Shown piece by piece: positions 1 to 38,448 of a stretch of 52,173 nt of DNA. The translations under genes were made by a program, and so were the position numbers. Position 1 is the first letter of the stretch, and each line of letters starts with the position of its first letter. Below the pieces are notes generated by a model, which worked only from the letters and a program-made list of their open reading frames with translations, did no database searches and was not told where the DNA came from. Source of the stretch: an uncultured Pseudomonadales bacterium (GTDB taxonomy: Bacteria; Patescibacteriota; Microgenomatia; UBA1400; PJMF01); the NCBI GenBank assembly GCA_964418385.1, contig CAYQLH010000002.1, positions 1 through 52,173 of the forward strand, read 5' to 3'.

Positions 1-2
1 AG

Positions 3-824: not shown

Positions 825-931
825 AGGTTTCTCTTGAAAGGAAGAAAATGAACCCAAAAGTGATCCAGATGCAGGAAAAACTGAAAAACTGCCGCAATAA
901 TTAATTTACTTTTCTTTATTTATTACTGTGT

Positions 932-961: not shown

Positions 962-1004
962 CGCAGTGAAGCCGTAAAACGCAGAACGGGATAATAGGAA
1001 AATG

Positions 1005-1037
1005 GTGAGAAAATATGAGTGGCACTCATAAAAAATC
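1005..1037. repeat. 33-bp direct repeat, copy 1 (identical to 2331-2363), containing palindrome ATGAGTGGCACTCAT
   Basis: TGAGAAAATATGAGTGGCACTCATAAAAAATCA is identical at both sites, and the flanking bases differ. The palindrome is at 1014-1028. Confidence 0.9.
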
Positions 1038-1045
1038 AGTGACTT

Positions 1046-2308: not shown

Positions 2309-2330
2309 AGCGTGTATTATACCACATTTT

Positions 2331-2363
2331 TGAGAAAATATGAGTGGCACTCATAAAAAATCA
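2331..2363. repeat. 33-bp direct repeat, copy 2; overlaps the -35 region of the ATPase promoter
   Basis: Identical to 1005-1037. The palindrome at 2340-2354 sits just upstream of the extended -10 (ATTATA on plus strand, 2316-2321). Confidence 0.9.
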
Positions 2364-2433
2364 ACAGATTAACAAGTCACCAGGCGGTTACATACCTGCC
2401 ACCTTACTTTAAAGTGGGAGTTGTATGGTGGCG

Positions 2434-2750
2434 AGTTTTCCACCAAAGCGGTGAAAAAGAAAGTTAAAAGGTGAGTGGAAAAGCGGTGGAAAGCAGTGAA
2501 GAAAGTAAAAGAATTGTGAAAAACGTAAATTACAAATGAGATTGGTCACATTTTGGTGGGTAAGTTTTCCACTATGGTTGACGGGAGTTTTCCACGGGCG
2601 CAAGTGTCCAATTTTTGGAAGTGCAAAACATAAATATTTCCAAAACACCAATTATTTTTACAGATTACAAATCGTGCAGTTGCGAGTTTTCCACTAAGTT
2701 TTTCTTTTCTACTAATTACTACTAAATTAAAATAATATTTAGAGAGGAGT
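2434..2750. other. oriC: Candidate oriC: DnaA-box cluster plus AT-rich unwinding stretch, upstream of dnaN
   Basis: AGTTTTCCAC occurs at 2434-2443, 2563-2572, 2586-2595 and 2685-2694. Inverted copies GTGGAAAA (2475-2482) and GTGGAAAG (2486-2493) are also present. These match the TTWTNCACA-type box (TTTTCCAC). An AT-rich tract follows at 2695-2745 (tttcttttctactaattactactaaattaaaataatattt). Confidence 0.6.
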
Positions 2751-2751
2751 G

Positions 2752-2760
2752 TGGTATAAT
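2752..2760 (+). promoter_or_regulatory. Extended -10 (TGgTATAAT) of dnaN, 7 nt before the ATG (leaderless type)
   Basis: gtgTGgTATAATcgatgatATG; TATAAT at 2755-2760, ATG at 2768. Confidence 0.6.
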
Positions 2761-2767
2761 CGATGAT

Positions 2768-3883
2768 ATGAAGTTCACAGTCAAACAAGCCGAGCTGGCA
2801 AAAGCAGTAAAAGCGATCAATCGTTGTCTTTCAAGACGGCCGCATTTGCCGGTTTTGGGTGGGATCAATCTTGTTGCTAAAGAAGGAAAAGTTAGCTTGA
2901 CAACCACAGATACGAGTGTAGGTTTGCGAGTGAGTGTGGCGGCAGAAATTGAGCAAGAAGGTCAAACGGTAATCGTAGGTAAAAATTTTGTGGAAACAGT
3001 GGGATTTTTGGAAGGTGCAAAGACAGAGGTCACAACCGGAGAAAAAGAGGCAATAGTGTGCAGCGGGCGTGATAAAGTGAAGTTACCAATTTTAACGGAT
3101 GAATTTCCAGGTTTTGACGATAGTTTTGACGCTGATGGCTTGGTGAAAAAGAATCTTGATTTTTGGGCGAAGATTGTGAGCGACGTTGCTTTTGTGGCAA
3201 GTACAGACCAGAGTCGACCAGCTTTAACAGGAATTCTTTTAAAAACGACAGGCGAAAAAACACAAATTGTGTGCACTGATGGCTTTCGCTTGGCAATTTG
3301 GGAAACTGAGGAGAAAATCAATGATGACGATAACCTTGAAGTAATTGCGAGTGCCAAGGCGCTGGCAGATTTGGTGGCGGTGGCGGGCGTACTTGGTGAA
3401 ACCAAGGTAGGAATTTATCACAATGTGGCGGCAGAGCAACTGGTTTTTGTGGGCGAGCAGTTTGTCTTTTTTAGCAAACTGATAAATGCGAGTTATCCGC
3501 CGTTTGAGAAAATTGTGCCCCTTGATTTTGCAGTCCAGGCGCAGTTGGAACGGAGTGAAATGTTGAAAAACCTGGCTAAAGCAAGTGTTTTTACCAAAGT
3601 GGATAGTAATACTGTGAAATTACACTTGAGTGCGGAACAGCTGGAATACAACGCGGTGAGCCTGGGTGATGGGAGTTTTCAAAGTAGCCAGGAATTGGTA
3701 AAAAAAGACGGTGATGAGATAGAAATTGCATTTAATATTAAGTATTTGCAAGATTTTTTGAATACCTGTGAAGGAGCGACGGTATGGCTGGGTTGTAATA
3801 CGCCCACGACGCCGGCGATGTTGCGTGATCCGGGGGTGGCGGAGCGAAAATACGTAGTGATGCCGTTTAAGCCGAAAAATTAG
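2768..3883 (+). CDS. dnaN: DNA polymerase III beta sliding clamp
   Basis: 371-aa ORF reading MKFTVKQAELAKAVKAINRCLSRRPHLPVLGGINLVAKEGKVSLTTTDTSVGL...ALTGILLK...DGFRLA...MPFKP, the typical DnaN architecture and length. Confidence 0.95.
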   Translation: MKFTVKQAELAKAVKAINRCLSRRPHLPVLGGINLVAKEGKVSLTTTDTSVGLRVSVAAEIEQEGQTVIVGKNFVETVGFLEGAKTEVTTGEKEAIVCSGRDKVKLPILTDEFPGFDDSFDADGLVKKNLDFWAKIVSDVAFVASTDQSRPALTGILLKTTGEKTQIVCTDGFRLAIWETEEKINDDDNLEVIASAKALADLVAVAGVLGETKVGIYHNVAAEQLVFVGEQFVFFSKLINASYPPFEKIVPLDFAVQAQLERSEMLKNLAKASVFTKVDSNTVKLHLSAEQLEYNAVSLGDGSFQSSQELVKKDGDEIEIAFNIKYLQDFLNTCEGATVWLGCNTPTTPAMLRDPGVAERKYVVMPFKPKN

Positions 3884-3926
3884 CAAAAGTGTGGTATAAT
3901 ATCTCATCTGGATAAGAAAGGATGCG

Positions 3927-4076
3927 ATGAAAAGAACGTGGCAACCAAAAAAGAAAAAACGAATGCGCAAACATGGGTTTTTGAAACGGATGATGACGGC
4001 CAAAGGACGCCAGGTCTTGAAACGTCGCCGAGCAAAAGGTCGAGCGCGGTTGACAGTGGTACGCAAAGGTGTTTGA
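3927..4076 (+). CDS. rpmH: 50S ribosomal protein L34
   Basis: Not in the ORF track because it is under 60 aa. ATG 3927 to TGA 4074-4076 gives [51 protein letters not shown]-like GAAAGGA lies 6 nt upstream and TGgTATAAT is at 3886-3894. Confidence 0.9.
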
Positions 4077-4370
4077 TTGGTGAAACAAGAAAAGACGGAA
4101 AATAGCGGGTCTGGTGTGAAATCAGGCTCGCTTTTGGCGATAAATGATTGTAAGCTGCTAAATAAAGCAGCGATTGCGCTGGCACGGAGTGTAGTCAAGG
4201 TGCATAAACGCTTGGCACCCTGGCGGCGAGCAATTTTGGTGAGTGTGTTTGGATTTTGTAGCGAGTGTAAACAGCGACCAACTTGTAGCGAATACTTATT
4301 GGAGCAAACGGAGAAAAGTGGCTGGCGAGGTCTAGCGCGAGGAATAAAGCGAATGCTTGCTTGTCATTAG
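4077..4370 (+). CDS. yidD: Membrane protein insertion efficiency factor YidD-like
   Basis: The C-terminal half, CKQRPTCSEYLLEQTEKSGWRGLARGIKRMLACH, matches the YidD motif C-R-x-x-P-[ST]-C-S-x-Y...R-x-x-R-C-H. Start is TTG immediately after the rpmH stop, so the exact start is uncertain. The N-terminal ~55 aa are unrelated to RnpA. Confidence 0.7.
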   Translation: MVKQEKTENSGSGVKSGSLLAINDCKLLNKAAIALARSVVKVHKRLAPWRRAILVSVFGFCSECKQRPTCSEYLLEQTEKSGWRGLARGIKRMLACH

Positions 4371-4390
4371 TTTTATTTTTTTTGATTATG

Positions 4391-4464
4391 TTTTTTATTT
4401 GTCAAAATTTGTTCATGTTTTCCAGATGTGCATGTAAAACATTTGTTAAACACGTGTTTAACAA
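4391..4464. repeat. Palindrome-containing intergenic element, copy 1 (related to 50729-50803 in inverse order)
   Basis: A perfect 22-bp palindrome TTGTTAAACACGTGTTTAACAA lies at 4443-4464. TGTCAAAATTTGTTC at 4400-4414 is the reverse complement of GAACAAATTTTGACA in copy 2. Located between convergent yidD and dnaA. Confidence 0.8.
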
Positions 4465-4482
4465 CAATTTATGTGAAGAGCT

Positions 4483-5979
4483 TTAATAAATGTTGCCAAA
4501 AATGGTGGCTTTGATAGCATTGATGTCCTCTTGGAGAGCGTTGTCGGTTTTGAGGTGATCGTTAATTTTGGCGACAGCATGCATGACGCTGGTATGATCC
4601 CGATTGGAAAAAAGCTGACCGATTTCAGCATAGCTGAGAGAAAGGAGTGACTTGAGTAAAAACATGGCAACATGGCGAGCGAGGGCGATTTCTTTTTGGC
4701 GGCGAGTGCCGATAAGGACGGCTTGCTTGAGGGAATAATGATTGGCAACAGCTTGAATGATTTCTTTGGGATGAAGTTGGCGATGAGAGTATTCTTGTTG
4801 TTGCGTCTCGGCGAGGATACTGGTGACAAGTGTTTGGTCAATGAGTTTGCCGGAAAGCTCGTGTTCGCTTTTGAGGCGCATGACGATGCCTTCGAGTTTG
4901 CGGGCAGAATCAATGCGGGCGGCGATCATTTGAGCAAGTTCGATGGGAAGCTCAAGACCAGAACTTTTAGCCTTGGCGAGAAGAATGGCAGAGCGGAGCT
5001 CGAAAGACGGTTGCTGAATGTCGATTTTGAGGCCGGCTTCAAAGCGAGAGCGAAGACGATCTTCGAGGAGAGCGATTTCGTGCGGAGGACGATCTGAGGT
5101 CATGACAATTTGGTGATTTTGCTTGACAAGCGCGTTGAAAGTGTGGAAAAACTCTTCCTGAACAGCGTTTTTACCAGCGATAAACTGGATATCGTCGATC
5201 AAAAGGACGTCGCAAGTACGATATTTGTCTTTAAAATTGAGCGCTTGCTTGTTTTGGATGGCGCGGATGATAGAATTGGTAAATTCTTCGCCGGTGCAGT
5301 AAATAATTGTGGTTTCTGGGCGGGAGCGAAGAATATAGTTGCCGATGGATTGCATGAGGTGGGTTTTACCGACGCCTACAGAGCCGTAAAGGAAAAGTGG
5401 ATTGTAGCTCACGCCTGGGTTTTTGGCGACGGATAAAGCGGCAACGTGCGCCATTTCGTTGGAGCTAGAGATAGCAAAAGTATCAAAAGTGAAATCTGGG
5501 CGTAAACCGATGTTTTTGGCAATGGTGGCGGCGCGAGAAACGAGAGTGTCGCGGACGGTGTGAGAAGAAAAAAGACCGTCGGCATACTCGACAGTGGGGG
5601 GTGGGGTGGTGGGGAGATTGGCAACGGTTTGAGTGGTGTCTGGAGTAGGCGTTGTTTTGGTAGTAACTACAGTGGGAGCAGGGGTGGGAAGATTAAAAAT
5701 AAATTTGAGCTCTACAGGGCGGCCGAGTTTAGCGGCAAGTGCATTTTTGGTGTGTGATCCAAGGTTTTTTTCAAATTGAAGAGCGTTAAAGGAAGACGGA
5801 CACAAAAAAACACAAAGCCATTGAGTACCGTTGGCGTAATCGTCTATTTGATGAAGACTGCAAGTTTTCCCCCATGCATCAACTAAAAGTGGCGAAACAG
5901 TGGTGGCAAGTTCGGTGCATGTTTCTTGCCAGAGGGTTTGAAGTGAACCAGCATCGAGTGCGAGCGATTGTGATGACAT
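4483..5979 (-). CDS. dnaA: Chromosomal replication initiator protein DnaA
   Basis: Walker A is LYGSVGVGKTHLMQSIGN, Walker B is LLIDDIQF, sensor region is MTSDRPP, and the C-terminal DNA-binding helix is RDHTSVMHA. Start set to ATG 5979 (MSSQSLALD...) on promoter geometry. A T/P-rich linker separates domains I and III. Confidence 0.95.
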   Translation of the reverse strand: MSSQSLALDAGSLQTLWQETCTELATTVSPLLVDAWGKTCSLHQIDDYANGTQWLCVFLCPSSFNALQFEKNLGSHTKNALAAKLGRPVELKFIFNLPTPAPTVVTTKTTPTPDTTQTVANLPTTPPPTVEYADGLFSSHTVRDTLVSRAATIAKNIGLRPDFTFDTFAISSSNEMAHVAALSVAKNPGVSYNPLFLYGSVGVGKTHLMQSIGNYILRSRPETTIIYCTGEEFTNSIIRAIQNKQALNFKDKYRTCDVLLIDDIQFIAGKNAVQEEFFHTFNALVKQNHQIVMTSDRPPHEIALLEDRLRSRFEAGLKIDIQQPSFELRSAILLAKAKSSGLELPIELAQMIAARIDSARKLEGIVMRLKSEHELSGKLIDQTLVTSILAETQQQEYSHRQLHPKEIIQAVANHYSLKQAVLIGTRRQKEIALARHVAMFLLKSLLSLSYAEIGQLFSNRDHTSVMHAVAKINDHLKTDNALQEDINAIKATIFGNIY

Positions 5980-5986
5980 GAATAAA

Positions 5987-6015
5987 GTTTTACACTGAGT
6001 TTTCCACAATGTCAA
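5987..6015 (-). promoter_or_regulatory. dnaA promoter with a DnaA box inside the spacer
   Basis: Minus strand reads TTGACA (6015-6010), a 17-nt spacer, TAAAAC (5992-5987), 7 nt, then ATG 5979. The spacer contains TGTGGAAAACT, seen as AGTTTTCCACA at 5998-6008 on the plus strand. This layout is classic for autoregulation. Confidence 0.55.
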
Positions 6016-6139
6016 GATGGAATTTTGAGGCACGATTTTGATAAATGTAGGCAAAAAATAATTGATATAGCGTTAAAATTTGATAACTAGAAAAGAAATG
6101 GCGCTATAATGTCGCGGCAAATGCGGGAATTAAATGACT

Positions 6140-20891: not shown

Positions 20892-20918
20892 GCCCCGGGC
20901 GGAAGTCTGGGGCTTTTT
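20892..20918 (+). terminator. Intrinsic terminator after the 124-aa gene; its U-tract overlaps the stop codon of the convergent VirD4-like gene
   Basis: GCCCC (20892-20896), a 12-nt loop, GGGGC (20909-20913), then TTTTT (20914-20918). Confidence 0.5.
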
Positions 20919-23124: not shown

Positions 23125-23169
23125 AAACACTGGTATTATAACATAGTTTCAGGCAGAAACCGGTCGACA

Positions 23170-27277: not shown

Positions 27278-28150
27278 ATGGTTGCGATATTGGAAGAGTG
27301 TAAAATAGTTTGCAGTCCATCGCCTGATACGAGGGCGAGTGTGCTTTGTTTTGCGCGGGTGCGTAGCCAATTTTACAATTACGAGCGTTTCGCGTATGCG
27401 CCGCAAGTGGTAGAGGCGGCGTTGGCAAATTATCGGCTACCGCAAGTGCGACGTTTTACTTGGACGGACGCAGTGCTGAATTTCATGATTGTTTTGGCCG
27501 CGGGGACGATTTTATTGTATGTTTTACCGGGAATGTGGAATCGTTTGATACCAGGTCATTCTCTTAGTCGTGAGTCACAGGTAATTGAGGAAACAGTACA
27601 ATCGCTTGTCAGTGCGACAGCGGTGGGCGATGGCGAGAAACTGACTGAGGCGTGGAATTTACCGGAAGGTTGGCAGCGTGGCAGTCATGAAAGTAGCGAT
27701 GCTCATCGCGTGGCGCCGGAATACGATTTGTCGCTTCCTGAAGGTCGCTGGGTAGTTAATAAAGATATTGGTTTGCAAGCACCCATTTATACCAACGAAA
27801 GCGTGGAAAACGTGGCGGAAGCGGATGCACTTTTGGAAAGAGGCATTTACATGTATCCACAGTATGATAGCATTGGTTGGAGCGGTCGTGAAGTGATTTT
27901 GGCGGGGCATCATTACAACATGACGATTTCCGATCAAAAAGCGGCGCAATCGTTTCAAAATTTGAATAAATTGCAGGTGGGCGACAAGGTGCAGATTGTG
28001 GATGACTACAAGATTTGGACGTATGAAATTTACAAAATTGAAGAATCGACGGAAATTACGGAGGAAAATCCAGATTTGATGATGTACACTTGCATTTACT
28101 GGTGGGACGCGAAATTGCGACTTTTTGTGTACGCACGGATAGTGGAGTAA
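27278..28150 (+). CDS. Sortase-family transpeptidase (membrane anchored)
   Basis: TM is AVLNFMIVLAAGTILLYVLPGMW. Catalytic His context is VILAGHHYN, Cys context is DLMMYTCIYW (TLxTC-like), and Arg context is LRLFVYARIV. Confidence 0.8.
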   Translation: MVAILEECKIVCSPSPDTRASVLCFARVRSQFYNYERFAYAPQVVEAALANYRLPQVRRFTWTDAVLNFMIVLAAGTILLYVLPGMWNRLIPGHSLSRESQVIEETVQSLVSATAVGDGEKLTEAWNLPEGWQRGSHESSDAHRVAPEYDLSLPEGRWVVNKDIGLQAPIYTNESVENVAEADALLERGIYMYPQYDSIGWSGREVILAGHHYNMTISDQKAAQSFQNLNKLQVGDKVQIVDDYKIWTYEIYKIEESTEITEENPDLMMYTCIYWWDAKLRLFVYARIVE

Positions 28151-28277
28151 GCGCACAGAGTTTTGTATTGGTAAAAACAGCGTTTTTGGGCTATAAATCA
28201 TTTTGTTGGTTGATGCAAACTGTTTGCTTTTGCGGGCGAGATAAAGTATAATATTTTTGATTTAAGCGAAAGGAAAG

Positions 28278-28604
28278 ATGCAACAATACGATACACGGAT
28301 CCAAGTGCGACTGGAAGAGAATTTAAAAAGGCAAGCGGAAAAAGTTTTTGACGGTTTGGGTGTGGATTTGCCGACGGCAATCCGTGTGTTTTTGCGCCAA
28401 AGTGTGATTCAAAACGGTTGGCCGTTTGGGATGATGGGTTTGGACGCGTTGCAAGATACGTGCACCAATACGGTGACACGTGAGCTTTTGGTGAGTGACG
28501 GGAGAGCTTACGAAGTGATGCGGACGCAGAAAACCTGTCAGTTGGCATCGGCGCGAACACGGGCCTTTTTGACGAGCGAGCAAGCAGAAAAACAGCAAAA
28601 GTGA
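28278..28604 (+). CDS. RelB/DinJ-family antitoxin-like protein (RHH), no adjacent toxin
   Basis: The N-terminus TRIQVRLEENLKRQAEKVFDGLGVDLPTAIRVFLRQSVIQNGWPF matches the DinJ pattern (i.vRld..lK..a..v...lGl..s.ai..fl.q......lPF). The C-terminal 55 aa are unassigned. Confidence 0.65.
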   Translation: MQQYDTRIQVRLEENLKRQAEKVFDGLGVDLPTAIRVFLRQSVIQNGWPFGMMGLDALQDTCTNTVTRELLVSDGRAYEVMRTQKTCQLASARTRAFLTSEQAEKQQK

Positions 28605-28666
28605 TCAGTTTTTTCTTGCGCATAAATACTGGTGTATAGTGTGAATATTGTTAATTTGTATAAATT

Positions 28667-29110
28667 ATGTCTACATTAGCGAATAAAAAGTTGGTGGTGC
28701 TGGCAAGAGCGCGACACAATGGTGAGCGGCGGTCTTTGGCTTTGGGGCAAGTGCAAGCGGGGTTTGCGACGTGGGCAGAGGATGAGATTGAGAAAGATTT
28801 AAGCATTGATGATTATTTAGTGGAGCATCCAGTGGGGACTTTTTTGGTGAAGGTGGCCGGAGAATCAATGATTGAAGCGGGAATTTTGCCTGGTGATGTG
28901 CTGGTGGTAGACCGGACGTTGACGGGTAAAAACGGGCAAATCGTGATTGCAGTGGTGGATGGCGATTTGACGGTGAAGCGTTTGGCGCAAGAAGATGGAC
29001 GAGTGGTGTTGCGAGCGGAAAACCGGAAATTTCCCAAAGTGATCATTCCAGAGGGGGCAGAGGTGGAAATCTGGGGTGTGGTGGTGGGCGTGGTGCGCAA
29101 AATGGCGTGA
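28667..29110 (+). CDS. umuD: UmuD-like S24 self-cleaving peptidase (error-prone polymerase V accessory subunit)
   Basis: Ala-Gly cleavage site context is QVQAGFATWAED, Ser nucleophile is AGESM, and Lys is TVKRL. It is colinear with E. coli UmuD (...[29 protein letters not shown]...IVIAAVDGEFTVKKL...). Confidence 0.8.
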   Translation: MSTLANKKLVVLARARHNGERRSLALGQVQAGFATWAEDEIEKDLSIDDYLVEHPVGTFLVKVAGESMIEAGILPGDVLVVDRTLTGKNGQIVIAVVDGDLTVKRLAQEDGRVVLRAENRKFPKVIIPEGAEVEIWGVVVGVVRKMA

Positions 29111-29112
29111 AA

Positions 29113-29145
29113 CAATTACAAATTCTAAATTGTAAATTATAAATT
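29113..29145 (+). repeat. AAATTNN heptad tract (5 phased copies) immediately after the umuD stop
   Basis: (C/A)AATT occurs at 29113, 29120, 29127, 29134 and 29141, exact period 7 (caattac aaattct aaattgt aaattat aaattaa). Similar phased tracts are at 31604-31615 and 41117-41154. Confidence 0.8.
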
Positions 29146-29154
29146 AAGTGGCTG

Positions 29155-29279
29155 ATTGCGTCATCACTCTACCGAAAAAAGTGCGAAAGTGTGAAAAATG
29201 GTGTGCGAGAATTGCGGCTGTATAAAGCCTAAATTTGACTTTGTACTCCCTATGGAGCACAAGTAAAAGGCGAAAATTG
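29155..29279 (+). repeat. 125-bp intergenic direct repeat, copy A
   Basis: attgcgtcatcactctaccgaaaaaagtgcgaaagtgtgaaaaatggtgtgcg...aagcctaaatttgactttgtactccctatggagcacaagtaaaaggcgaaaattg. I count 13 mismatches in 125 against 31631-31755, with no gaps. Confidence 0.9.
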
Positions 29280-29328
29280 GCAGTTAGAGCTTGACGCGGT
29301 TTGGCTTGAATTATAAGACGCTGGCTGC

Positions 29329-29357
29329 TTGACAATCGGAGAGAGTAAAAGTACAAT
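29329..29357 (+). promoter_or_regulatory. Consensus-like promoter of the 716-aa membrane protein gene
   Basis: TTGACA (29329-29334), 17 nt, TACAAT (29352-29357), 9 nt, then GTG 29367. Confidence 0.65.
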
Positions 29358-29366
29358 TAAGCTGTT

Positions 29367-31517
29367 GTGGAAAACAATTTATTATTGCAAATTATTGCGG
29401 CTGTTTTTGATATGATTTGGCTTGTGGGAATGATTGTGGCTTTGGTGTGGGGTAGCGGTAAGAATCGCGAGTGTCAGCGTTTGCGTCGTGAAATTGCTAA
29501 GCTGCAAGATGATCTGGCAGCAGTTCAACAGGCGGTTGCGTCTACACATGATGACGAACAGAGTCGCCCGGTAATATCAGTACCGGACGTGCCAGCTGCG
29601 GCCTTAGCTGAAAAGACGAATCCGGTGCCAGCGGTCGCTAAGCCAACACCAAAAATTTTGGTGCCAGGGATGGATTTTGCTCCTGAAGGTCCGCGTGGGA
29701 TGCTGGCCTTGTTTTACTTGGGGGCGTTTTTTGTGATTGCGGCGGCGTGGGCGTTTATTGCGAGCGACTATGGAGCATTGATGCCTGGAGTGAAGACGCT
29801 GGCTTTGGTGGCGGTGACGATGATATTTGCTCTGGGTGGGTATTACTTGGCGCGCCAATCGCGTTGGCGCGTGGCGGGCATTGTGTACGTGGGGATTGCT
29901 TTGATTTTTATTCCTACTGATGGGGTGGCTTATTTCCTTTTTCACGAAGGCGCAGCCAGTGGGACTGGGGTGTGGCTAGTGACGTCGTTGGCTTTTGTGA
30001 CGATGGCGTGGCTGTTTTACCGAAGTGTGCTCAAAAATCAACTCATGCTACAGTTTATCTTGACTGGACTTTTGTCAACGCTGTGGGCGGTGGTGCGCAT
30101 GATGGGAGCGGCGACGCTGACTCCATACTGCGTTGTGGCTTGCGGTTATGGCTATGGGCTTTATTATTTATCGGCGAAATTGGCTGCCAACCAAAAGGCT
30201 TTCGCTGGGTGCGGGACATTATTTGCTCTGGGCGGTGCCGCTTTGGGCGTGGCGGTGAGCTTGTTGACCTGCGTGGGTTACATGCTGACTAATAGTTTGA
30301 GCCAACGCTTCCAGTTGGGACTGGAAACTAAATCCCTACTGGCGGAGCAGTGGTCGGCGATTGCTTTTGCGCTGGCGGGGTTGCTGATGTGCGCTTGGCG
30401 TTTTGCACGGGAGCAGCGCGATGGCGATTGGCACGGAGTGATAATCGCTTTTTTGGTGACGGTGTGGTCACTGATGGTGGTGGCAGGCGTGGATTATGAT
30501 TGGTGGTACCTGGTGATTATGGTTTTGGCGTATGGCGTCAGCGCGATTCTCAATTTAACTCCATGGGCGGACGGCTTGTCACCAGTGCAAAAACGAATTA
30601 CTGCGGGGTGGGCAGCGGCTTTGGCGATCTGGGGAGGTTTTGGTGGGATGGTGATCAATATGCCTTGGGAGCACAGTGTCGCTAATGATTGGTCAGCGCT
30701 GGCTTACACGGTGGCGGCGATGGTGTATTTTGGCGGCAATTATGTGTTGACGCACCGCTTGATTGAGTTGACTGCAAGCGTGCTGTGGGGGACGCAAAGT
30801 GTGGCTGTCGTATTGATCCTTACGCACGCGCCATTGGCTGCTTGGGTGGGCGCAGGGTTTATTTTGAGTTTGGCCGCGGCAAGTGGGTGTTTGCTGCTGC
30901 CGGAGGGGGCGTACAAGCGAGTTTTGTACTGTTATACACTGGTGGTGTCAATGATAGCCTGGGTGCTGAGTATGGCGATTACTGGCGATGGGGCGTGGTT
31001 GATTGCAATCGTGATGGTGGTCAACGTCCTGGCTTTGTATTTACTGGTGGCAAAATACGCGCGCCGGCGCAATAAATACGAATTGGTAAGTTTTTTGTGG
31101 GTAGTGTGGTGGTGGTTTGTGGCTGACAGGCTGGGTTTGGACAGCACACAGTGGTATTCACAAGCGGCAGCGTTGTACTTGCTAGTGGTGGCTTACGGGC
31201 GGTGGTTGCATGAGGAAACGCGAGGAAGCGCTTTGCGAGTGGCGCTGGCAGCGGCGATTTGGAGCGCGCTTTGCTGGTTTGGTGAGCCAAAAGTGGGGCC
31301 GATGATGACGGCTGGTGTGGGTGTGTTGACAGTTTTGTGGGGTCAGTGGTGGCGACAACAGAAGTTGCGACGCGTGGGCGTGGTGATTGTCGTGGTGGGC
31401 ATTTTGGCACAGACCTCATCAATCCTTTTCCACTTGCCGGTGTGGCTGTGGTATGCCTTGATGGCGGTGGGCATTTTGGGCGGAGCGATGTATTATTTGC
31501 GTCGCGAGCAAAAATAA
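29367..31517 (+). CDS. Large polytopic membrane protein (716 aa, ~18-20 TM, W/A/L/G-rich), unknown function
   Basis: Long ORF with almost continuous hydrophobic segments after an N-terminal coiled segment (CQRLRREIAKLQDDLAAVQQAV). Visibly more GC-rich than its neighbours. No family recognised. Confidence 0.65.
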   Translation: MENNLLLQIIAAVFDMIWLVGMIVALVWGSGKNRECQRLRREIAKLQDDLAAVQQAVASTHDDEQSRPVISVPDVPAAALAEKTNPVPAVAKPTPKILVPGMDFAPEGPRGMLALFYLGAFFVIAAAWAFIASDYGALMPGVKTLALVAVTMIFALGGYYLARQSRWRVAGIVYVGIALIFIPTDGVAYFLFHEGAASGTGVWLVTSLAFVTMAWLFYRSVLKNQLMLQFILTGLLSTLWAVVRMMGAATLTPYCVVACGYGYGLYYLSAKLAANQKAFAGCGTLFALGGAALGVAVSLLTCVGYMLTNSLSQRFQLGLETKSLLAEQWSAIAFALAGLLMCAWRFAREQRDGDWHGVIIAFLVTVWSLMVVAGVDYDWWYLVIMVLAYGVSAILNLTPWADGLSPVQKRITAGWAAALAIWGGFGGMVINMPWEHSVANDWSALAYTVAAMVYFGGNYVLTHRLIELTASVLWGTQSVAVVLILTHAPLAAWVGAGFILSLAAASGCLLLPEGAYKRVLYCYTLVVSMIAWVLSMAITGDGAWLIAIVMVVNVLALYLLVAKYARRRNKYELVSFLWVVWWWFVADRLGLDSTQWYSQAAALYLLVVAYGRWLHEETRGSALRVALAAAIWSALCWFGEPKVGPMMTAGVGVLTVLWGQWWRQQKLRRVGVVIVVVGILAQTSSILFHLPVWLWYALMAVGILGGAMYYLRREQK

Positions 31518-31630
31518 AAGTTAAACTTCGATATCAGGTTTGTTTTAAGCGTGGGAAGGCAAATACGGCCTCAGGTTGTTTGGGGGATTAGAAATCCTTC
31601 TAAAAATTAGAAATTATAAAAAAGGCGGGA

Positions 31631-31755
31631 ATTGCGTCATCACTTTACCGAAAAAAGTACGAAAGTATGAAAAATGGTGTGCGCAAATTAGAGCTATTTT
31701 AAGCCTAAATTTGACTTTGTACGCCCTGTGGAGCACAAGTAAAAGGCGAAAATTG
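31631..31755 (+). repeat. 125-bp intergenic direct repeat, copy B
   Basis: Same element as 29155-29279, ~90% identical. It lies between the membrane protein gene and umuC. Confidence 0.9.
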
Positions 31756-31799
31756 AGAATTTGCCTTTGGGTTTTGGTCGGTGTGATACAATAACCGGT

Positions 31800-33119
31800 A
31801 TGAGCAATTTGTGGGCTTTGATTGACGCCAATAACTTTTTTGTGTCGTGCGAGCGCGTTTTTCGTCCAGATTTAAGCGAGAAACCAGTTTTGGTTTTGTC
31901 TTGTAATGACGGTTGTGTGGTGTCGCGATCAGCAGAGGTGAAAGCTTTGGGTATACCCATGGGGGCGCCTCGTTTCCAGATAGAGGCAGAGATTAAAAGA
32001 AATGGTATTGAGTGTTTTTCTAGCAATTTTCGCTTGTATGCAGATTTGTCTTCGCGGATGATGCGCTTGATTGGCGAGGTCGTGGGAAGTGAAAACCAGG
32101 AAATTTATTCAATTGACGAATGCTTTGTGCGGTTGCCGCTGGATCGAGAATGCGATTGGCAAGCCTGGGGTGAGCGTTTGCGAGGGCAGATTTTACAGTC
32201 CTTGGGAATTCCGGTGACGGTGGGTGTGGCGACGAGCAAAACGTTGGCAAAGTTGGCGACGGAAATTGCCAAAAAGGATGTTTTTGGCAAGGGAGCGATG
32301 GCGTGGATGCCTGGAAATATAGAGTGGCAAGAGCGTTATTTGCGACCGGCGCCGATTATGACGGTGTGGGGTTTGGGTCAGGCGACAGTGCATAAACTGC
32401 TGGCAAAACGGGTGGCAACAGTAGGGGATTTTTTGGCGTGGGAGAGCAAGCGAGTGCGGCAATATTTGGGTTTAAACGGTGAGAAAACTTGGCGAGAATT
32501 GCAGGGTGAAAGCTGTATTGAGCTGAAAGAAGCCAAGCCGGCACATCGTCAGATCGGACGGAGCCGTTCTTTTGGGGAAGCGGTGTACACACGGGAGGAA
32601 TTGGCGTACGCGGTGAGCGAATATTTGAGCGCGGCGGCGGGGGCGCTGCGACGACACGGCTGGCGAGCGTCCATGGTGACAGTGAGGATTCGCTCAGGCA
32701 GATATGTGCCGCGAGAACAGTTTTATGCGGCAGCGTGGAGCGTGGGTTTGGAGGAGTCAACTAGCTTTTTGCCAGATCTGGCGTCGGCGGCGATGAAGGC
32801 GCTGGCGCAAATTTACCGACCAGGAGTGGCGTACAAAAAAGCAGGGGTGATTTTAAGCGAAATTGAAAGCGAGGCCGCGTGGCAGCCACAGCTTTTGGAG
32901 CCAGACAAACCAGGACCAGAGGAGGAACAAAAGCAAAAAGTGAGCGCGGCGGTGGAGCAGATTAACCAGCAGTGGGGAGGGTGGGGAGTGACTTTGGGGT
33001 GGGCAGGTGGCGGCAAGAATGCGGGCGGCAAGGCAGTGTGGCAAAAATGGCGTTCGCGGGCGACACGGCGTTCGCCGCAGTATACCTCGCGCTGGGAAGA
33101 ACTACGCCGGGTGCAATAA
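31800..33119 (+). CDS. umuC: Y-family translesion DNA polymerase, UmuC-like
   Basis: MSNLWALIDANNFFVSCERVFRPDLSEKPVLVLSCNDGCVVSRSAEVKALGIPMGAP...YSIDECF is colinear with E. coli UmuC (MFALCDVNAFYASCETVFRPDL...VVVLSNNDGCVIARNAEAKALG...YSIDEAF). TGaTACAAT 31784-31792 lies 7 nt before ATG 31800. Confidence 0.9.
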   Translation: MSNLWALIDANNFFVSCERVFRPDLSEKPVLVLSCNDGCVVSRSAEVKALGIPMGAPRFQIEAEIKRNGIECFSSNFRLYADLSSRMMRLIGEVVGSENQEIYSIDECFVRLPLDRECDWQAWGERLRGQILQSLGIPVTVGVATSKTLAKLATEIAKKDVFGKGAMAWMPGNIEWQERYLRPAPIMTVWGLGQATVHKLLAKRVATVGDFLAWESKRVRQYLGLNGEKTWRELQGESCIELKEAKPAHRQIGRSRSFGEAVYTREELAYAVSEYLSAAAGALRRHGWRASMVTVRIRSGRYVPREQFYAAAWSVGLEESTSFLPDLASAAMKALAQIYRPGVAYKKAGVILSEIESEAAWQPQLLEPDKPGPEEEQKQKVSAAVEQINQQWGGWGVTLGWAGGGKNAGGKAVWQKWRSRATRRSPQYTSRWEELRRVQ

Positions 33120-33316
33120 ATGGAGTAATTTTTGTGTACGAAATATTAAAATAATGCTTAAAAATAGGTAAAAATTTGTGTAAAAATGTGATATAAATTG
33201 GGTCGTGCGAGCGTAGGCGCTTTTTTGAGATCATTGGCGGTGGGGAATTAACGCTTTAATAAGCGCAAACAAGTGGCGCAAAATCTGACTGATGAAGAAA
33301 TTGTTAAACACAATCC

Positions 33317-36009
33317 TTGTCTACTCTCTCTAACGAGGCAAATGAGGTCTATAAAAAGGTTTTAGAGCAATTAAACCCAGAGGGCAAAGAATTAAGCCAA
33401 GAGCAAAAAGTACAAAACGAGACTAACGCGGTACTGCTTACCCGTATGGCGGAAACGCAAGCGCAAGCGTTAAACCGAAATCCAGAACTGGCAAAAAAGA
33501 TCTATGGGAAAGAAAAAGTCACGGCAGAAGATGTTAAAAACCAGGTATTCAAGATTGAGTATGGAGAGAAAGCGGTAAAGCAAGACGCACAAAACCAGGT
33601 GCTAGATCAGGGATACGATTATGGAAAACACATGAGTAACAATGCAGTGTCTGCATATGATGACGGTAAAATGCCACTGTCTAAATGGACAAAAAACGCA
33701 ATATTAGATCAAATCGATGATTTAGATGACTCCAAACTAGAATTAGCTCAGTTGCTTACACTCAAAGAATTAAAAAATGAATTACTGCAATGGACGGAGT
33801 GGCACCACACTGGAATTTTTTACGATAATACGGATTTTTACGGTATAAACAAAGCCGCGCTCGAAAGATTGGATAAAAAACGAGTAGCCGAAATTAAAGG
33901 CTGGACTGTAGATAAAGTAGACCAAAAAATAAAACAAAAGGTAGAAAGAGAAAAGGAAGCCCAAAGAAAGAAAGAGGAAGAGAAAAAGCAAAGAGAAATA
34001 AAAGAAAAAGACGAAGAAAAAAAATTAAAACAATTCAAAAAAGAAGGAAAAGCAATTGAGACAATCCCAAGAAACTGGGGCATTGATGAGATTTCTCGTG
34101 GTGAAAAAACTCTTTCTAATTATCGCCAGATTACTTACGATGGTGAAAAATACTATGTACCACTTGATACTTTTACAAATATAGGCAAGCTGCAAGATCA
34201 AAGGTCTTTTTTGGAAAACGCAAGAGAAAAGGGCAGGATCTTGGAAGCAATACCGTCACAATGGGATAGAGATGCGATACCGGAAATTACCGCTGCCCGT
34301 ACAGATGGAGACGATGTTTATGTTGGCGTCAAAGAGCCAGGTCATAAAAATGGAAAAGCATATTGGATAAACTCGGAAAATGAAGCAATCCAAGAACTAT
34401 TGCGAAAATCTAGACCTTACCGGAAATTACCGCTGCCCGTACAGATGGAGACGATGTTTATGTTGGCGTCAAAGAGCCAGGTCATAAAAATGGAAAAGCA
34501 TATTGGATAAACTCGGAAAATGAAGCAATCCAAGAACTATTGCGAAAATCTAGACCTTATGAAATGGATGACGCCCAAAAGATTTTAAAGAGTGTTTATG
34601 GTAATTCTTCCAGCAACGACGAAGCAAACAACTTGGTATTTGATCAGAAAAACGGCGTCACTGTAAAGGGTGATGAGTTTGGTGAGTATAAAGACCTTAG
34701 AGACTTGAGACAGAAGGCAGCGCAATATTATAGAGAAAACTTGCAAGGAACTAGCGTCTACAATCCTATCCTCGGCAAGATTGATATTGACGAGAATGGC
34801 ATTGTAAACTTTACTTCTTCTGGTAGAAAGGAAATGAAAAATACAAGCGCAAAGGAGAATAAGCTTTTACTTGTCAAGTACTTACCAAAACTTATTAAAA
34901 ACGCAACCGATATTGCATCTAGTGAGTCTATAAAAGAAAAGCACGACGGTGATTACTTTTACTATTTACACACTAACTCTATGATTGGGAATGAAATCAT
35001 ACCTGTAGATATTACGCTAATTAAAAGACCTAATGGTGATATCCAATATTACAATCATATACTTCCATCTGAAGAAAAACAAAAGGATACGCCAGTATCT
35101 TCAAGATCAGTATCTCCTAATGGAGCCCTCGACACCAAGACTTTTAACGTATCCTCAATTGGTGATAGTATACCACAAAACGACCGCAATGTCAAGGTTT
35201 TTGACCAAGCCATCGCTAATCAGATCAAAGGTCAAGCCATCATTAAGCAAAACGAAGCCGTGATTAAACTCCTCGATAAAGCCGATGCCTCTACCCTTAT
35301 GCACGAGGCGGCTCACGTGTATTTGCAACAACTCTATACTCTCGCCTCTTTTGAGGGTGTAGATGAGCAGACCAAGAAAGACTTTAACACTTTGGCTCGC
35401 TGGCTAGACTATGACCCTAAACAAGGTAAACTGACCACTAAACAGCAAGAAAAGTTTGCCAGAGGTTTTGAAGCTTATTTACGTACTGGTCAGACTCAAG
35501 TTAAAAACCTCAAGGGTGTATTTAACCGCTTTAAACAGTGGTTATCCGACATTTACAAGACGTTTAAAGAGTTAGGCGGTAAACCATCGAAAGAAGTTAG
35601 AGACGTCATGGAGCGGATGGTTGCGACAGACTCTGAGATTAAGCAAGCACAAGGTGAAGCCGCCGTGGCTAAAGCTAACGAACGTAAAACCACACAGTAT
35701 TGGGAGAAAGCCGTCAAAAAGGCATATCCTAAGTTCTCTAAAGAGTTCAGAGACTCTATGGCAGATATACTTGTATGGATGCAGTCTGGAATGGGTCAAG
35801 GTGTTTCAAGTGCTCTGGTCTATGACCAAGAAGGTCAGGGTTACAACGTGATCGCACGGCTTACATCGAGCAATAATGACCCGTGGTATCAGGAATGGTA
35901 TGCGCAAAACCACAAAAAGCCAAATATTGGAGAGCAGATTTGGTTTTTGTTTGAAACATTTAATGCAAAAACTGCGAGTATTATGGAATGTATTATTAAT
36001 AATAATTAA
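33317..36009 (+). pseudogene. Polyvalent-type mobile-element protein (LPD-like modules plus HExxH metallopeptidase motif), disrupted by a 140-bp tandem duplication and probably 5'-degraded
   Basis: ORFs 33317..34510 and 34540..36009 are in frames that differ by 140 mod 3. Deleting one duplicate copy fuses them (...ENEAIQELLRKSRPYEMDDAQKIL...) into one 850-aa ORF. HEAAH is at 35302-35316. There is a K/E-rich coiled segment. The start is TTG with no SD or -10, and an in-frame stop lies 12 nt upstream. Confidence 0.7.
34278..34559 (+). repeat. Perfect 140-bp tandem duplication (2 copies) with TA(C) junction microhomology
   Basis: 34280-34419 is identical to 34420-34559 at 140/140 positions (ccggaaattaccgctgcccgtacagatggag...gcgaaaatctagacctta). 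140 is not divisible by 3. Confidence 0.95.
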
Positions 36010-36505
36010 TAATAGTGAGCGCAATAAGTTTTGTTAATTATTTTAATATTTATTTTTTGTTTGTCGTTAAAGATTATTTTTTTAAACAATGTTAAGTTGC
36101 AAAATGCATTGGTTTTGTTTTAAATTTTGTTGATATATAGTGAAAAATATGTATTAAAATTTTTTTGAAAAAAGTTGTTTAATTAACGATTTATATTATT
36201 TTATTTGTCAAATATGTAAAGCACACAAATGTAATTATTATTTTAAATTTTTTATTTTAAAACAATTTTAAAAATGATTTTGATTTTTTATAGAATGTAT
36301 GATGCGTCGTTAATGTTTAATTGTAAAGTATTGTTTTGTAATTTTGAAAAACGTTTGTTAACTTTGAAAGTTAAAAACAAAATGAAACTATTCAGTTGTT
36401 AAATCTATTTATTACTAATGCTGTTTGTATGCAGTATTGGTTTTAAAACACTGTGTGATTTTATAGAGGCTTTTTGGCGTGCAAAAATGTCTCGCGCAAA
36501 AAGTC

Positions 36506-36534
36506 TTGACAAAAGCAGTGGGGCGTGTTACAAT
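36506..36534 (+). promoter_or_regulatory. Consensus promoter of rho, giving a ~117-nt leader
   Basis: TTGACA (36506-36511), 17 nt, TACAAT (36529-36534). The rho ATG is at 36658. Confidence 0.7.
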
Positions 36535-36657
36535 AACTTCATTCTTATGATGATGAAGTAATACGAATTAGTTTTCCCGCAGGGTGGTTGTTTTTTAGGA
36601 TAGTGAAAGACACTTGTCGTTGGTAACGACTCATGCGGAAAACGGAAAGAATTTTCT

Positions 36658-38448
36658 ATGATGCAAGATGAACAAAAAATACCTGCTGCGGTGGCGTCGG
36701 TGAATCCAAAAACTACAGATATGAACACAGCAAAACGGACACGCAGAAAAAAAGAAGCAGCAGAAGTGGCAGGAGTGAGTCCGGTGTTACCAGCGAGCAG
36801 TGTGATTTCTCGCGCAAGTGCAGATTTAGGTTTGGAGAAAAAACCGATTAAAATGTCAGTGCCAGTGGTGCCGCTGATGGCGGAAGCACCGCCAGCAGTG
36901 TCAATTGCCAGCGCGGCAGTCCCTCCAAAGCCAACGAGCAAACGCTTGAAGGCACTTTTGAGTGTAGGAATTGCGAACGAAAAGAAAAGTACAAGCAGAG
37001 CGACGGTGACCGCACCCAAGACAGGCCCTGCAGGTCAGCTGGATGCGGTTGACTCCACCAAGTCAGCAGCTGCGTCTTCGTCGGTGTCACCGGCGTTGGC
37101 GCCAATAGCAGCGGAGCAAACAAAACCATTGATTGGTAGTGCGAGCACGGCGTCGATACCAAAACCCGCGGCAGGTCAAACGCCAACAGCGATGAATTAC
37201 GCCGGTTTGGTGTCAGCAGCGAGTTTGGGTAAAAGAAATAAGGTTTTTGCCAAGCGGGTGGGTTTTGGGAAACCAACGACGGTGAGTCAAAATACATCGG
37301 CGAGTGTGAGTAGCAGCAAATTAACACGACAGGTGAGTGGTTTTTTGGATACTTTCCGGGAAAACTTGCCAGTAGTGCGCTTGCGCTATGGAGAAAGTGA
37401 AGAAGACGCTTTTGTGCCGCCAAATATGATGCGTAAGTACAAATTGCAGCCTGGAGACGTCATTGAGGGCACAGCGCGCGAACCCAAGGAAACAGATCGC
37501 TATTGGGGTTTGGTGTCGATTGAAAAGGTCAACGGCATGAGTTTGGAGGAATATTTGAGCAAACCGCGGGTGAAATTCCATCAATTAACGCCGGTTTATC
37601 CAGATGAACAGATTAAATTGGAAACAGGTGCGGAACCGATTTCAACGCGGATGGTGGATTTGATTGCTCCTATTGGTAAAGGGCAGCGGTCTTTGATCGT
37701 GTCGCCGCCAAAAGCTGGAAAGACGAGTTTGCTGAAAGAAATTGCGACCGGCGTGGCGACAAATTATCCAGATATTTTCTTGATGGCAGTTTTGATTGGT
37801 GAACGTCCCGAAGAAGTGACGGATTTACGACGTCACATTGAAAAGATCACCCAAGGTAAAGGCGAAGTGGCGGCAAGTAATTTTGACGAAGCGGCAGAAA
37901 ACCAATGCCGGGTGGCGGAATTGGCGTTGGAGCGAGCCAAACGCTTGGTGGAAAAAGGCATGGATGTGGTGATTCTTTTGGATTCGATTACGCGGTTGGC
38001 GCGGGCATACAATTTATCAATTCCGACTTCTGGAAGAACGTTGTCTGGTGGTTTTGATCCGGCGGCACTTTTCCCGCCCAAACGCTTTTTTGGAGCGGCG
38101 CGAAATTTTGAGGTGCCAGGCAGCCTGACTATTATTGGGACGGCTTTAGTGGACACTGGTTCACGAATGGATGATTTGGTGTACGAGGAATTTAAAGGCA
38201 CTGGCAATCAAGAGCTGCATTTGGATCGACGTTTGGCAGAAAGACGGATTTTCCCAGCAATTGAAGTACAAAAATCTGGGACACGGCGTGATGATTTGTT
38301 GATGGATCCGGTGACGTATCAATCAGTTTTAACTTTGCAACGGATGTTGGATACATTGGATAACGGCGAACGCACCGTGACGCTGATGCAACAAATGCGA
38401 CGTACCAAAAGCAATCGGGAATTTTTGCAATCACTGCGCAACGGTTAA
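36658..38448 (+). CDS. rho: Transcription termination factor Rho with ~225-aa low-complexity N-terminal extension
   Basis: OB/RNA-binding part is YGESEEDAFVPPNMMRKYKLQPGDVIEG. Walker A is GKGQRSLIVSPPKAGKTSLL, Walker B is VVILLDSITRLARAYN, followed by RFFGAARN and GTGNQELHLDRRLAERRIFPAIEV. Confidence 0.95.
   Translation: MMQDEQKIPAAVASVNPKTTDMNTAKRTRRKKEAAEVAGVSPVLPASSVISRASADLGLEKKPIKMSVPVVPLMAEAPPAVSIASAAVPPKPTSKRLKALLSVGIANEKKSTSRATVTAPKTGPAGQLDAVDSTKSAAASSSVSPALAPIAAEQTKPLIGSASTASIPKPAAGQTPTAMNYAGLVSAASLGKRNKVFAKRVGFGKPTTVSQNTSASVSSSKLTRQVSGFLDTFRENLPVVRLRYGESEEDAFVPPNMMRKYKLQPGDVIEGTAREPKETDRYWGLVSIEKVNGMSLEEYLSKPRVKFHQLTPVYPDEQIKLETGAEPISTRMVDLIAPIGKGQRSLIVSPPKAGKTSLLKEIATGVATNYPDIFLMAVLIGERPEEVTDLRRHIEKITQGKGEVAASNFDEAAENQCRVAELALERAKRLVEKGMDVVILLDSITRLARAYNLSIPTSGRTLSGGFDPAALFPPKRFFGAARNFEVPGSLTIIGTALVDTGSRMDDLVYEEFKGTGNQELHLDRRLAERRIFPAIEVQKSGTRRDDLLMDPVTYQSVLTLQRMLDTLDNGERTVTLMQQMRRTKSNREFLQSLRNG

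What the first reader, a model, noticed from the sequence alone, without database searches (positions are those of the whole stretch)
34278..34559. Perfect 140-bp tandem duplication that frameshifts an 850-aa ORF
34280-34419 and 34420-34559 are identical at 140 of 140 positions, and a TA(C) microhomology sits at the junction.

Because 140 is not a multiple of 3, the upstream ORF runs out of frame and stops at 34510. The downstream ORF (34540..36009) continues the original frame. Removing one copy restores ...NSENEAIQELLRKSRPYEMDDAQKIL... as one protein.

Zero divergence between the copies means one of three things. It could be a very recent event, a reversible on/off switch through duplication and collapse by recombination, or an assembly or population-heterogeneity artefact.
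Basis: seen in the sequence. Interest (0 to 1): 0.65.

Follow-up and report, generated by a model that had tools for sequence, protein, structure and literature searches.

The report
Fresh tandem duplication breaking a foreign gene
A perfect 140-base tandem duplication really exists in this ruminant-gut bacterium's DNA and frameshifts a gene, but the gene is a cut-down leftover of a phage-type "polyvalent" protein, so this looks like an ordinary recent mutation in decaying foreign DNA and not a genetic switch.

Summary
34280-34419 and 34420-34559 are identical at 140 of 140 positions. The extra 140 nt shift the frame, giving a 397-aa ORF and a 481/489-aa ORF. Deleting one copy restores an 850-aa ORF.

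It is not an assembly artefact. The copy-to-copy junction is present in de Bruijn contigs built from the reads of three public gut-metagenome runs. The repeat core there has about twice the flanking depth. An independent ENA scaffold at 99.9% identity also carries the junction.

The host is most likely a Patescibacteria (CPR) bacterium from ruminant gut. The gene lies in a roughly 3.3-kb AT-rich insertion between umuC and the rho promoter. Relatives lack this insertion.

The restored protein has an unannotated WTEWHH domain, LPD3, and an HExxH region that matches proteins annotated LPD23. It corresponds only to the middle of a 1704-aa relative and lacks that protein's first 668 and last 270 residues. 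No phage or integrase genes sit nearby. No promoter-like site or ribosome-binding motif was found upstream.

Best reading: a recent microhomology (TA) duplication, fixed or nearly fixed, in a truncated foreign gene remnant. A reversible duplication/collapse switch is mechanically possible but has no support here. No single-copy allele was seen, although contig data could not have shown one directly. Interest is low.

The parts
34280..34419 (+). Copy 1 of the 140-bp tandem duplication. The register could equally be 34278-34417. It encodes aa 322-368 of the restored protein.
   Evidence: 140/140 identical to copy 2.
34420..34559 (+). Copy 2 of the duplication. The upstream ORF reads it out of frame (29 foreign residues, 34421-34507; stop at 34508-34510).
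34390..34447 (+). The copy-to-copy junction as a 58-nt k=31 contig. This sequence exists only in the duplicated allele.
   Evidence: run X3 has a separate contig covering exactly 34390-34447 at depth 4.0 (flanks 4.5 and 5.9; 142-nt core 8.3). Runs X1 and X2 have a 170-nt (140+30) loop contig, 34278-34447, at 9.88 and 12.8 against flanks of 4.6-5.6 and 5.3-7.
33317..34510 (+). Upstream ORF of 397 aa: 368 native residues plus a 29-residue frameshifted tail. It holds the unannotated WTEWHH domain (about 33611-33976), a Lys/Glu-rich linker and two diverged 'IPxxW' units.
34540..36009 (+). Downstream ORF (489 aa from TTG 34540; 481 aa from ATG 34564) in the original frame. It holds LPD3 (about 34690-35049) and an HExxH region (about 35152-35655) that matches proteins annotated LPD23.
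   Evidence: LPD3, E=2e-18; PHROG 9880.
33130..36500 (.). AT-rich (36% GC) foreign insertion of about 3.3 kb between the umuC stop and the rho promoter. The limits are approximate. The last ~490 nt (36010-36500) are non-coding.
   Evidence: (GC 0.365 against 0.451 for the window). In relative L003 the umuC stop lies about 60 nt from the conserved rho promoter, and none of the 80 related loci encodes the protein.
31761..33119 (+). umuC-like Y-family polymerase gene, the left flank of the insertion.
   Evidence: IMS, IMS_C, DUF4113.
36506..36534 (+). rho promoter (TTGACA-17-TACAAT). Together with its leader it is conserved in relative L003. It marks where native sequence resumes.
36658..38448 (+). 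rho, the right flank.

Best explanation
This is a genuine, recent, spontaneous tandem duplication. It most likely arose by replication slippage or unequal sister-strand exchange at a 2-nt TA microhomology.

It lies inside a horizontally acquired, already truncated fragment of a phage-type polyvalent-protein gene. That fragment sits in a ~3.3-kb AT-rich insertion between umuC and rho in a ruminant-gut Patescibacteria (CPR) chromosome.

The extra 140 nt (3x46+2) shift the frame. Translation from 33317 would end at 34510. The LPD3/HExxH part is left as a separate ORF.

The two-copy state is the predominant, probably the only, allele in the sampled populations.

Shown: the duplication, its presence in read-derived contigs, its roughly 2x depth, the foreign and fragmentary nature of the gene, and the absence of the insertion in relatives.

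Inferred: the slippage mechanism, the lack of function (pseudogene decay), and the lack of regulated switching.
For: - Exact 140/140 repeat and frame arithmetic.
- The junction is read-supported. Run X3 has separate contigs for the left flank (ends at 34307), the junction (34390-34447, depth 4.0), the 142-nt core (depth 8.3) and the right flank (starts at 34530). That is exactly the de Bruijn graph of a tandem duplication, with no other branches.
- In X1 and X2 the 170-nt loop contig has 1.9-2.1x the flank depth. My arithmetic gives a two-copy fraction of about 0.6-0.8 (X3), 1.1 (X1) and 1.3 (X2), or roughly 1 overall.
- An independent ENA scaffold (L001) at 99.9% identity, with 14 SNPs and a 3-bp indel outside the island and none inside it, carries part of a copy, 100 N, the end of a copy, then a full copy. 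It therefore has the same junction.
- The host is CPR. In relative L003 umuC abuts the rho promoter, and other relatives have sortase next to rho. tblastn of the restored protein against 80 related loci gave 0 hits.
- The gene is a fragment. P0010 (1704 aa) aligns at residues 669-959 and 1146-1433 only. PHROG 9880 matches profile positions 631-1097 of 2231. The ORF opens 3 codons after a stop, with no SD-like motif or close -10 box of the kind seen at other genes in the window, and no promoter-like site upstream.
- No integrase, phage structural, transposase or reverse-transcriptase genes are in the window.
Against: - Only assembled contigs at 3-8x depth were available, not raw reads. A single-copy allele produces no unique k-mers, so a minority of it would be invisible.
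- In X3 the junction and core depths are somewhat below the pure two-copy expectation (0.77x and 1.6x). This is within noise.
- Polyvalent proteins are modular and solo forms exist (PMC5512222), so 'fragment' does not prove 'non-functional'. The downstream 481-aa ORF is intact and could be expressed on its own.
- There are no expression data (one search found no RNA runs).
Confidence: 0.75

Rival explanations
1. Reversible ON/OFF switch. The 140-bp duplication (OFF) collapses by recombination between the two identical copies back to the single-copy in-frame allele (ON), and it re-forms. This would give phase variation of the polyvalent-type protein, as in pneumococcal cap3A.
For: Perfect 140-bp direct repeats are intrinsically unstable (general knowledge of deletion between tandem repeats). 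The architecture is identical to the cap3A OFF state (PMC11163986 citing Waite et al. 2001). In X3 the junction depth is slightly below the flanks. The region had an older in-frame duplication of the same module.
Against: - No single-copy allele was observed in any dataset, and depth ratios average about 100% two-copy.
- The same junction occurs in all runs and in a slightly diverged scaffold. There is no spectrum of independent duplications.
- The target is a truncated internal gene fragment with no evident start signals.
- With only a 2-nt microhomology, re-formation of exactly this duplication would be very rare, so the OFF direction would not be frequent.
Confidence: 0.06
2. Assembly or heterogeneity artefact. 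The genome really has one copy (or another copy number), and the two-copy contig is an assembler's traversal of a graph loop created by a minority variant or by chimeric reads.
For: Short-read graphs cannot count tandem copies directly. The ENA scaffolder broke inside the repeat and inserted 100 N. The exact copy number rests on depth at only 4-13x.
Against: - Junction k-mers occur in three runs at depth comparable to the flanks (4.0 against 4.5/5.9 in X3).
- Core depth is 1.6-2.1x the flanks in all three runs.
- In X4 a contig ends exactly at 34419, as expected at the branch point.
- No alternative branches or loose ends occur at the repeat borders.
Confidence: 0.07
3. Selected split or inactivation. 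The frameshift was favoured because it silences or separates a harmful foreign effector module. Alternatively, the two ORFs still work as separate polypeptides, in keeping with the modular nature of polyvalent proteins.
For: The duplication is at or near fixation in several samples and in a slightly diverged strain. The downstream ORF keeps LPD3 and the HExxH domain intact, with an ATG 54 nt after the upstream stop. Polyvalent proteins are normally processed into separate units, and solo domains exist (PMC5512222).
Against: No recognisable toxin or enzymatic effector domain is present in the fragment. No start signals were seen for either ORF. Fixation in four samples of one study can be simple clonal descent.
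Confidence: 0.1

Closest known systems
Polyvalent proteins of phages and conjugative elements (Iyer, Burroughs, Anand, de Souza & Aravind 2017, PMC5512222)
   Same: The protein contains LPD3 (Pfam PF18798, E=2e-18) and an HExxH region whose plasmid homologues are annotated as LPD23 domain-containing proteins. It is multi-domain and mosaic, with relatives that carry other modules (ART-PolyVal, MuF_C, a weak PBECR2 match) in the same positions. The paper describes extensive duplication and rearrangement of such modules, including LPD3.
   Different: Here it is only an internal piece (equivalent to residues 669-1433 of a 1704-aa relative). It lies in a chromosomal island with no phage or conjugative genes beside it, and it is broken by a frameshift.
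Duplication-mediated phase variation of pneumococcal capsule genes (cap3A; Waite et al. 2001, as summarised in PMC11163986)
   Same: A perfect tandem duplication inside an ORF switches the gene off by frameshift. Precise loss of one copy would restore it.
   Different: In cap3A both states co-exist, reversion is measured, and the gene is intact and functional. Here only the two-copy state and a single junction are seen, and the gene is a truncated remnant.
Ordinary spontaneous tandem duplications by slippage or illegitimate recombination at microhomologies (general bacterial mutagenesis; own knowledge)
   Same: A head-to-tail perfect copy, a 2-nt junction microhomology, a length unrelated to codon phase, and a location in non-essential DNA.
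   Different: Nothing substantive. This is the category it fits.

Membership tests
Polyvalent protein (phage/conjugative element) | Contains domains specific to polyvalent proteins (LPD families) | tested here: met
   LPD3 PF18798, E=2e-18, 67 bits against a cutoff of 27. Residues 566-733 match plasmid proteins annotated as LPD23 domain-containing and PHROG 9880.
Polyvalent protein (phage/conjugative element) | Several unrelated domains in one polypeptide | tested here: met
   In the restored ORF: the WTEWHH domain (aa 99-220; 390 representatives at E<=1e-10), two IPxxW units, LPD3 and the HExxH domain. In the sequence as it stands the domains are split over two ORFs.
Polyvalent protein (phage/conjugative element) | Encoded within a phage, prophage, plasmid or conjugative element | tested here: not met
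   The immediate neighbours are umuC, rho, an M23 peptidase and obg. No integrase, capsid, terminase or relaxase was found in the window. VirB4- and VirD4-like genes lie 10-27 kb away and are not linked to the island. There is no DNA match to phage records.
Polyvalent protein (phage/conjugative element) | Complete gene with its own start and the terminal modules seen in relatives | tested here: not met
   It aligns only to residues 669-959 and 1146-1433 of the 1704-aa P0010. The ORF opens 3 codons after a stop, without an SD-like motif or a -10 box.
Duplication/collapse phase-variation switch (cap3A type) | Perfect tandem duplication within an ORF causing a frameshift | tested here: met
Duplication/collapse phase-variation switch (cap3A type) | One-copy and two-copy alleles co-exist, and reversion is observed | tested here: inconclusive
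   Only contigs were available. Depth ratios are consistent with about 100% two-copy, with wide error. A single-copy allele has no unique k-mer.
Duplication/collapse phase-variation switch (cap3A type) | Recurrent, independent duplications of different extent in the same gene | tested here: not met
   The junction is identical in X1, X2, X3 and scaffold L001. No other junctions or loose ends were seen.
Diversity-generating retroelement template/variable repeat pair | Nearby reverse transcriptase, and repeats that differ at adenines | tested here: not met
   The copies are 100% identical and directly abutting. No RT domain was found in any window ORF scanned.
Assembly artefact | Junction sequence absent from the underlying reads | tested here: not met
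   Junction contigs are present in three runs at flank-like depth.

The most novel reading that the evidence does not exclude
The truncated polyvalent-protein fragment has been domesticated by this CPR bacterium. Its expression would be toggled by reversible gain and loss of the 140-bp copy, a duplication/collapse phase switch in an ultra-small episymbiotic bacterium, in a region that already shows an older module duplication.
Probability: 0.04. Interest if true: 0.5.

Novelty: new member of a known kind. Interest (0 to 1): 0.15.

Why it matters
It matters little beyond annotation. The locus should be annotated as a frameshifted pseudogene fragment of a phage-type polyvalent protein, not as two hypothetical proteins.

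It is a clean example of how to tell a real tandem duplication from an assembly artefact using graph topology and depth.

It also documents uptake and decay of phage-derived DNA in a CPR chromosome, next to a variable region upstream of rho.

If the switch reading were true, it would be a first example of duplication-based phase variation in CPR bacteria. Nothing found here points that way.

Tried and rejected
- Single-copy allele or further strains. I looked in other public runs (X5-X8), exact-protein look-ups, JGI metagenomes and IMG/VR by protein patterns and by an exact 29-mer, and phage DNA. None gave another copy of this locus. X5 and X6 hold only mosaic relatives that lack the duplicated segment.
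- RNA evidence. No RNA runs hold the locus.
- Structured RNA. No Rfam match in 32500-37200 at E<=1.
- DGR template/variable repeat. Rejected: the copies are identical and abutting, and there is no RT.
- Mobile-element borders. No flanking direct repeats were found. One perfect 15-nt AT-only inverted repeat (33141-33155 / 36037-36051) is about what chance gives in such AT-rich DNA by my rough estimate.
- Internal protein repeat by BLASTP self-comparison. Nothing significant. The two-unit idea rests only on both units aligning to one unit of P0010 and is weak.
- PDB, NCBIfam and PHROG searches for the N-terminal domain found nothing.
- Structure prediction was not run, because it would not bear on the finding.

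Full report
**1. The observation**

The sequence at 34278-34559 is a perfect two-copy tandem repeat with a 140-nt period.
- Tandem Repeats Finder reports 100% matches and a score of 564.
- A direct comparison gives 34280-34419 = 34420-34559 at 140/140.
- The identity runs 2 nt further left (TA) and 0 nt further right. The junction microhomology is therefore TA, and the register is ambiguous by 2 nt.

Because 140 = 3x46+2, the ORF starting at 33317 (TTG) leaves its frame after codon 368. It reads 29 foreign residues and stops at 34510 (397 aa). The original frame continues as 34540..36009, which is 489 aa from the TTG or 481 aa from the ATG at 34564. Deleting one copy gives one 850-aa ORF. It is the only such repeat in the window. 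All factual parts of the finding are confirmed.

**2. Is it real DNA or an assembly product?**

Four public gut-metagenome runs of one study (X1-X4) hold this locus. The same four hold the neighbouring rho-obg region. Only their k=31 Logan contigs are available, but the graph topology is diagnostic.

Run X3 has four separate contigs:
- the left flank, ending at 34307, depth 4.5;
- a 58-nt contig, 34390-34447, that is the copy-to-copy junction, depth 4.0;
- the 142-nt repeat core, depth 8.3;
- the right flank, starting at 34530, depth 5.9.

No other branches or loose ends are present. Runs X1 and X2 have a 170-nt contig (140 + k-1), 34278-34447, that contains the junction. Its depth is 9.88 against flanks of 5.6/4.6 in X1, and 12.8 against 7.0/5.3 in X2.

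With a simple model (junction = f, core = 1+f times the flank depth), my arithmetic gives a two-copy fraction f of 0.6-0.8 in X3, 1.1 in X1 and 1.3 in X2. That averages to about 1, with large sampling error.

In the low-coverage run X4 a contig ends exactly at 34419, as expected at the branch point.

An independent ENA scaffold from SAMN15829918 (L001) is 99.9% identical over 19.8 kb. It reads: flank, the first 53 nt of a copy, 100 N, the last 55 nt of a copy, a full copy, flank. It therefore has the same junction, and its assembler broke inside the repeat. The window and L001 differ at 14 positions plus a 3-bp indel outside the island, and at none inside it.

The duplication is therefore real and predominant. 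A minority single-copy allele cannot be excluded, because it has no unique k-mer.

**3. What the gene is**

The restored protein matches several things:
- Pfam LPD3, a large polyvalent-protein-associated domain, at aa 412-531 with E=2e-18.
- PHROG 9880, at profile positions 631-1097 of 2231.
- At residues ~566-733, which carry a HEAAH motif, hypothetical proteins of Xanthomonas CP2-like and Pseudomonas phages, and plasmid proteins annotated as LPD23 domain-containing.

An exhaustive HMMER search with the first 367 residues found 1045 relatives. Nearly all of those listed match residues ~99-220, a WTEWHH-motif domain that occurs both as small solo proteins and inside giant proteins. This domain has no Pfam, PHROG, NCBIfam or PDB match.

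The informative relative is P0010 (1704 aa, contig L082):
- Its residues 669-959 align to window 33311-34243.
- Its residues 1146-1433 align to 35047-35961, with long identical stretches.
- Its first 668 and last 270 residues have no counterpart in the window.
- Where the window has LPD3, P0010 has a different module with a weak PBECR2 match.

Other relatives combine LPD3 with ART-PolyVal and MuF_C. Contigs in runs X5 and X6 join the conserved ends around different middles. This is the modular mosaicism described for polyvalent proteins (PMC5512222).

Both window segments, aa ~236-300 and ~299-368, align to a single 'IPxxW...YWV' unit of P0010. This suggests an older in-frame duplication of that module. 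The new 140-bp copy lies in the second unit. This point is weak, because self-BLAST finds nothing.

**4. Where it sits**

Relatives of rho identify the host as a Patescibacteria (CPR) bacterium. The closest genomes come from goat jejunum (RGIG2556, RGIG2560), and no same-species genome was found.

The window is core chromosome near the replication origin. It carries dnaA/dnaN, a very strong GC skew, comEA/comEC, argS and tRNAs.

In relative L003 the umuC stop lies about 60 nt from a rho promoter and leader that are conserved with window 36506-36657. Other relatives have sortase directly upstream of rho. None of the 80 related loci encodes the polyvalent-type protein.

The window therefore carries a ~3.3-kb, 36%-GC insertion (about 33130-36500; window GC is 45%). 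The insertion consists of the gene fragment and 490 nt of non-coding AT-rich DNA.

No integrase, transposase, RT or phage structural gene was found in the window, and there are no flanking direct repeats.

The ORF opens three codons after a stop. Many other genes in the window have a -10 box close to the start codon, and one has a GGAGG motif. This ORF has neither, and the consensus scan finds no promoter-like site upstream of it.

**5. Mechanism**

The best explanation has three steps.
- An internal piece of a phage-type polyvalent gene was captured in a variable region upstream of rho. The route is unknown. Natural competence genes are present in the window, but that link is speculation.
- Later, a slippage or unequal sister-strand event at a TA dinucleotide duplicated 140 bp and broke the remaining ORF.
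- The two-copy allele is now fixed, or nearly so, in the sampled populations.

The anatomy, the read support and the foreign, fragmentary nature of the gene are shown. The mechanism of formation, the neutrality and the lack of function are inferred.

**6. Rivals**

- *Reversible switch of the pneumococcal cap3A type* (PMC11163986). It is mechanically possible, since 140-bp perfect repeats do collapse. Against it are the absence of any single-copy signal, the single shared junction, the truncated target, and the 2-nt microhomology, which would make re-formation rare.
- *Assembly artefact.* Contradicted by the junction contigs and the depth.
- *Selected inactivation, or function as two polypeptides.* This cannot be excluded but has no positive support.

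**7. Verdict**

This is a real but ordinary feature: a young frameshifting tandem duplication in a decaying foreign gene fragment. The novelty category is a new member of a known kind, and the interest is low.

Noticed in passing
window 2768, 14368, 23130(-), 27278, 44578, 47621 (start codons): Several genes have a TATAAT box, often preceded by TGn as in an extended -10, ending only a few bases upstream of the start codon, and no Shine-Dalgarno motif. This suggests that leaderless mRNAs are common in this CPR genome.
   Followed up: no
window 1-6100 and the whole window: dnaN (2768..3883, +) and dnaA (4483..6054, -) are divergently oriented. GC skew turns positive near 1-2 kb and stays unusually high (+0.2 to +0.39) over most of the window, on both gene orientations. 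The contig probably starts next to oriC.
   Followed up: partly
window 28150-36500; loci L002, L003, L007-L009: The stretch between sortase and rho is variable among relatives. Sortase abuts rho in several of them. In L003 umuC abuts rho, and in L002 umuC is inverted. The window has in addition an S24 (UmuD/LexA-like) peptidase, a 716-aa DUF2157-like membrane protein and the foreign island. This may be an insertion hotspot.
   Followed up: partly
window 35417-35466: In runs X1 and X2 a second haplotype with 6 SNPs in 50 nt adds about 3-4x depth on top of the main path. By my codon count, 5 of the 6 fall at third codon positions. X5 and X7 share some of these variants. A related polyvalent gene, possibly the donor lineage, seems to be present in the same communities.
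   Followed up: partly
window 33611-33976 (aa 99-220 of the restored protein): This is a widespread domain with the motif SMSNNA...PLSKWTK...W(T/S)EWHHT. It has 390 representative proteins at E<=1e-10, many of them 150-250-aa solo proteins and some of them giant proteins. It has no Pfam, PHROG, NCBIfam or PDB match. It is an unannotated family associated with polyvalent proteins.
   Followed up: partly
protein P0011: A 3084-aa protein made of 24 nearly identical tandem repeats of about 128 aa. It shares a short 'ITxxGxKYYVPL' motif with window aa 261-291. The similarity is probably incidental, but the repeat array is extreme.
   Followed up: no
window 38121-38163 (rho): Seven of the 14 differences between the window and scaffold L001 cluster within 43 nt of rho. 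This looks like a short recombination tract or a strain-mixture consensus effect.
   Followed up: no
window 33141-33155 and 36037-36051: A perfect 15-nt inverted repeat (AAATATTAAAATAAT / ATTATTTTAATATTT) brackets the polyvalent ORFs. It consists only of A and T and is about what chance gives by my estimate. I note it in case it marks the ends of the insertion.
   Followed up: partly
window 6140-8311(-) and 20917-23130(-): VirB4/TraG-P-loop-like and VirD4/TrwB-like ATPases are encoded 10-27 kb from the island, next to a 1160-aa ORF with no Pfam match. They are possibly a type IV secretion or DNA-uptake apparatus of the CPR host. No link to the island was established.
   Followed up: no
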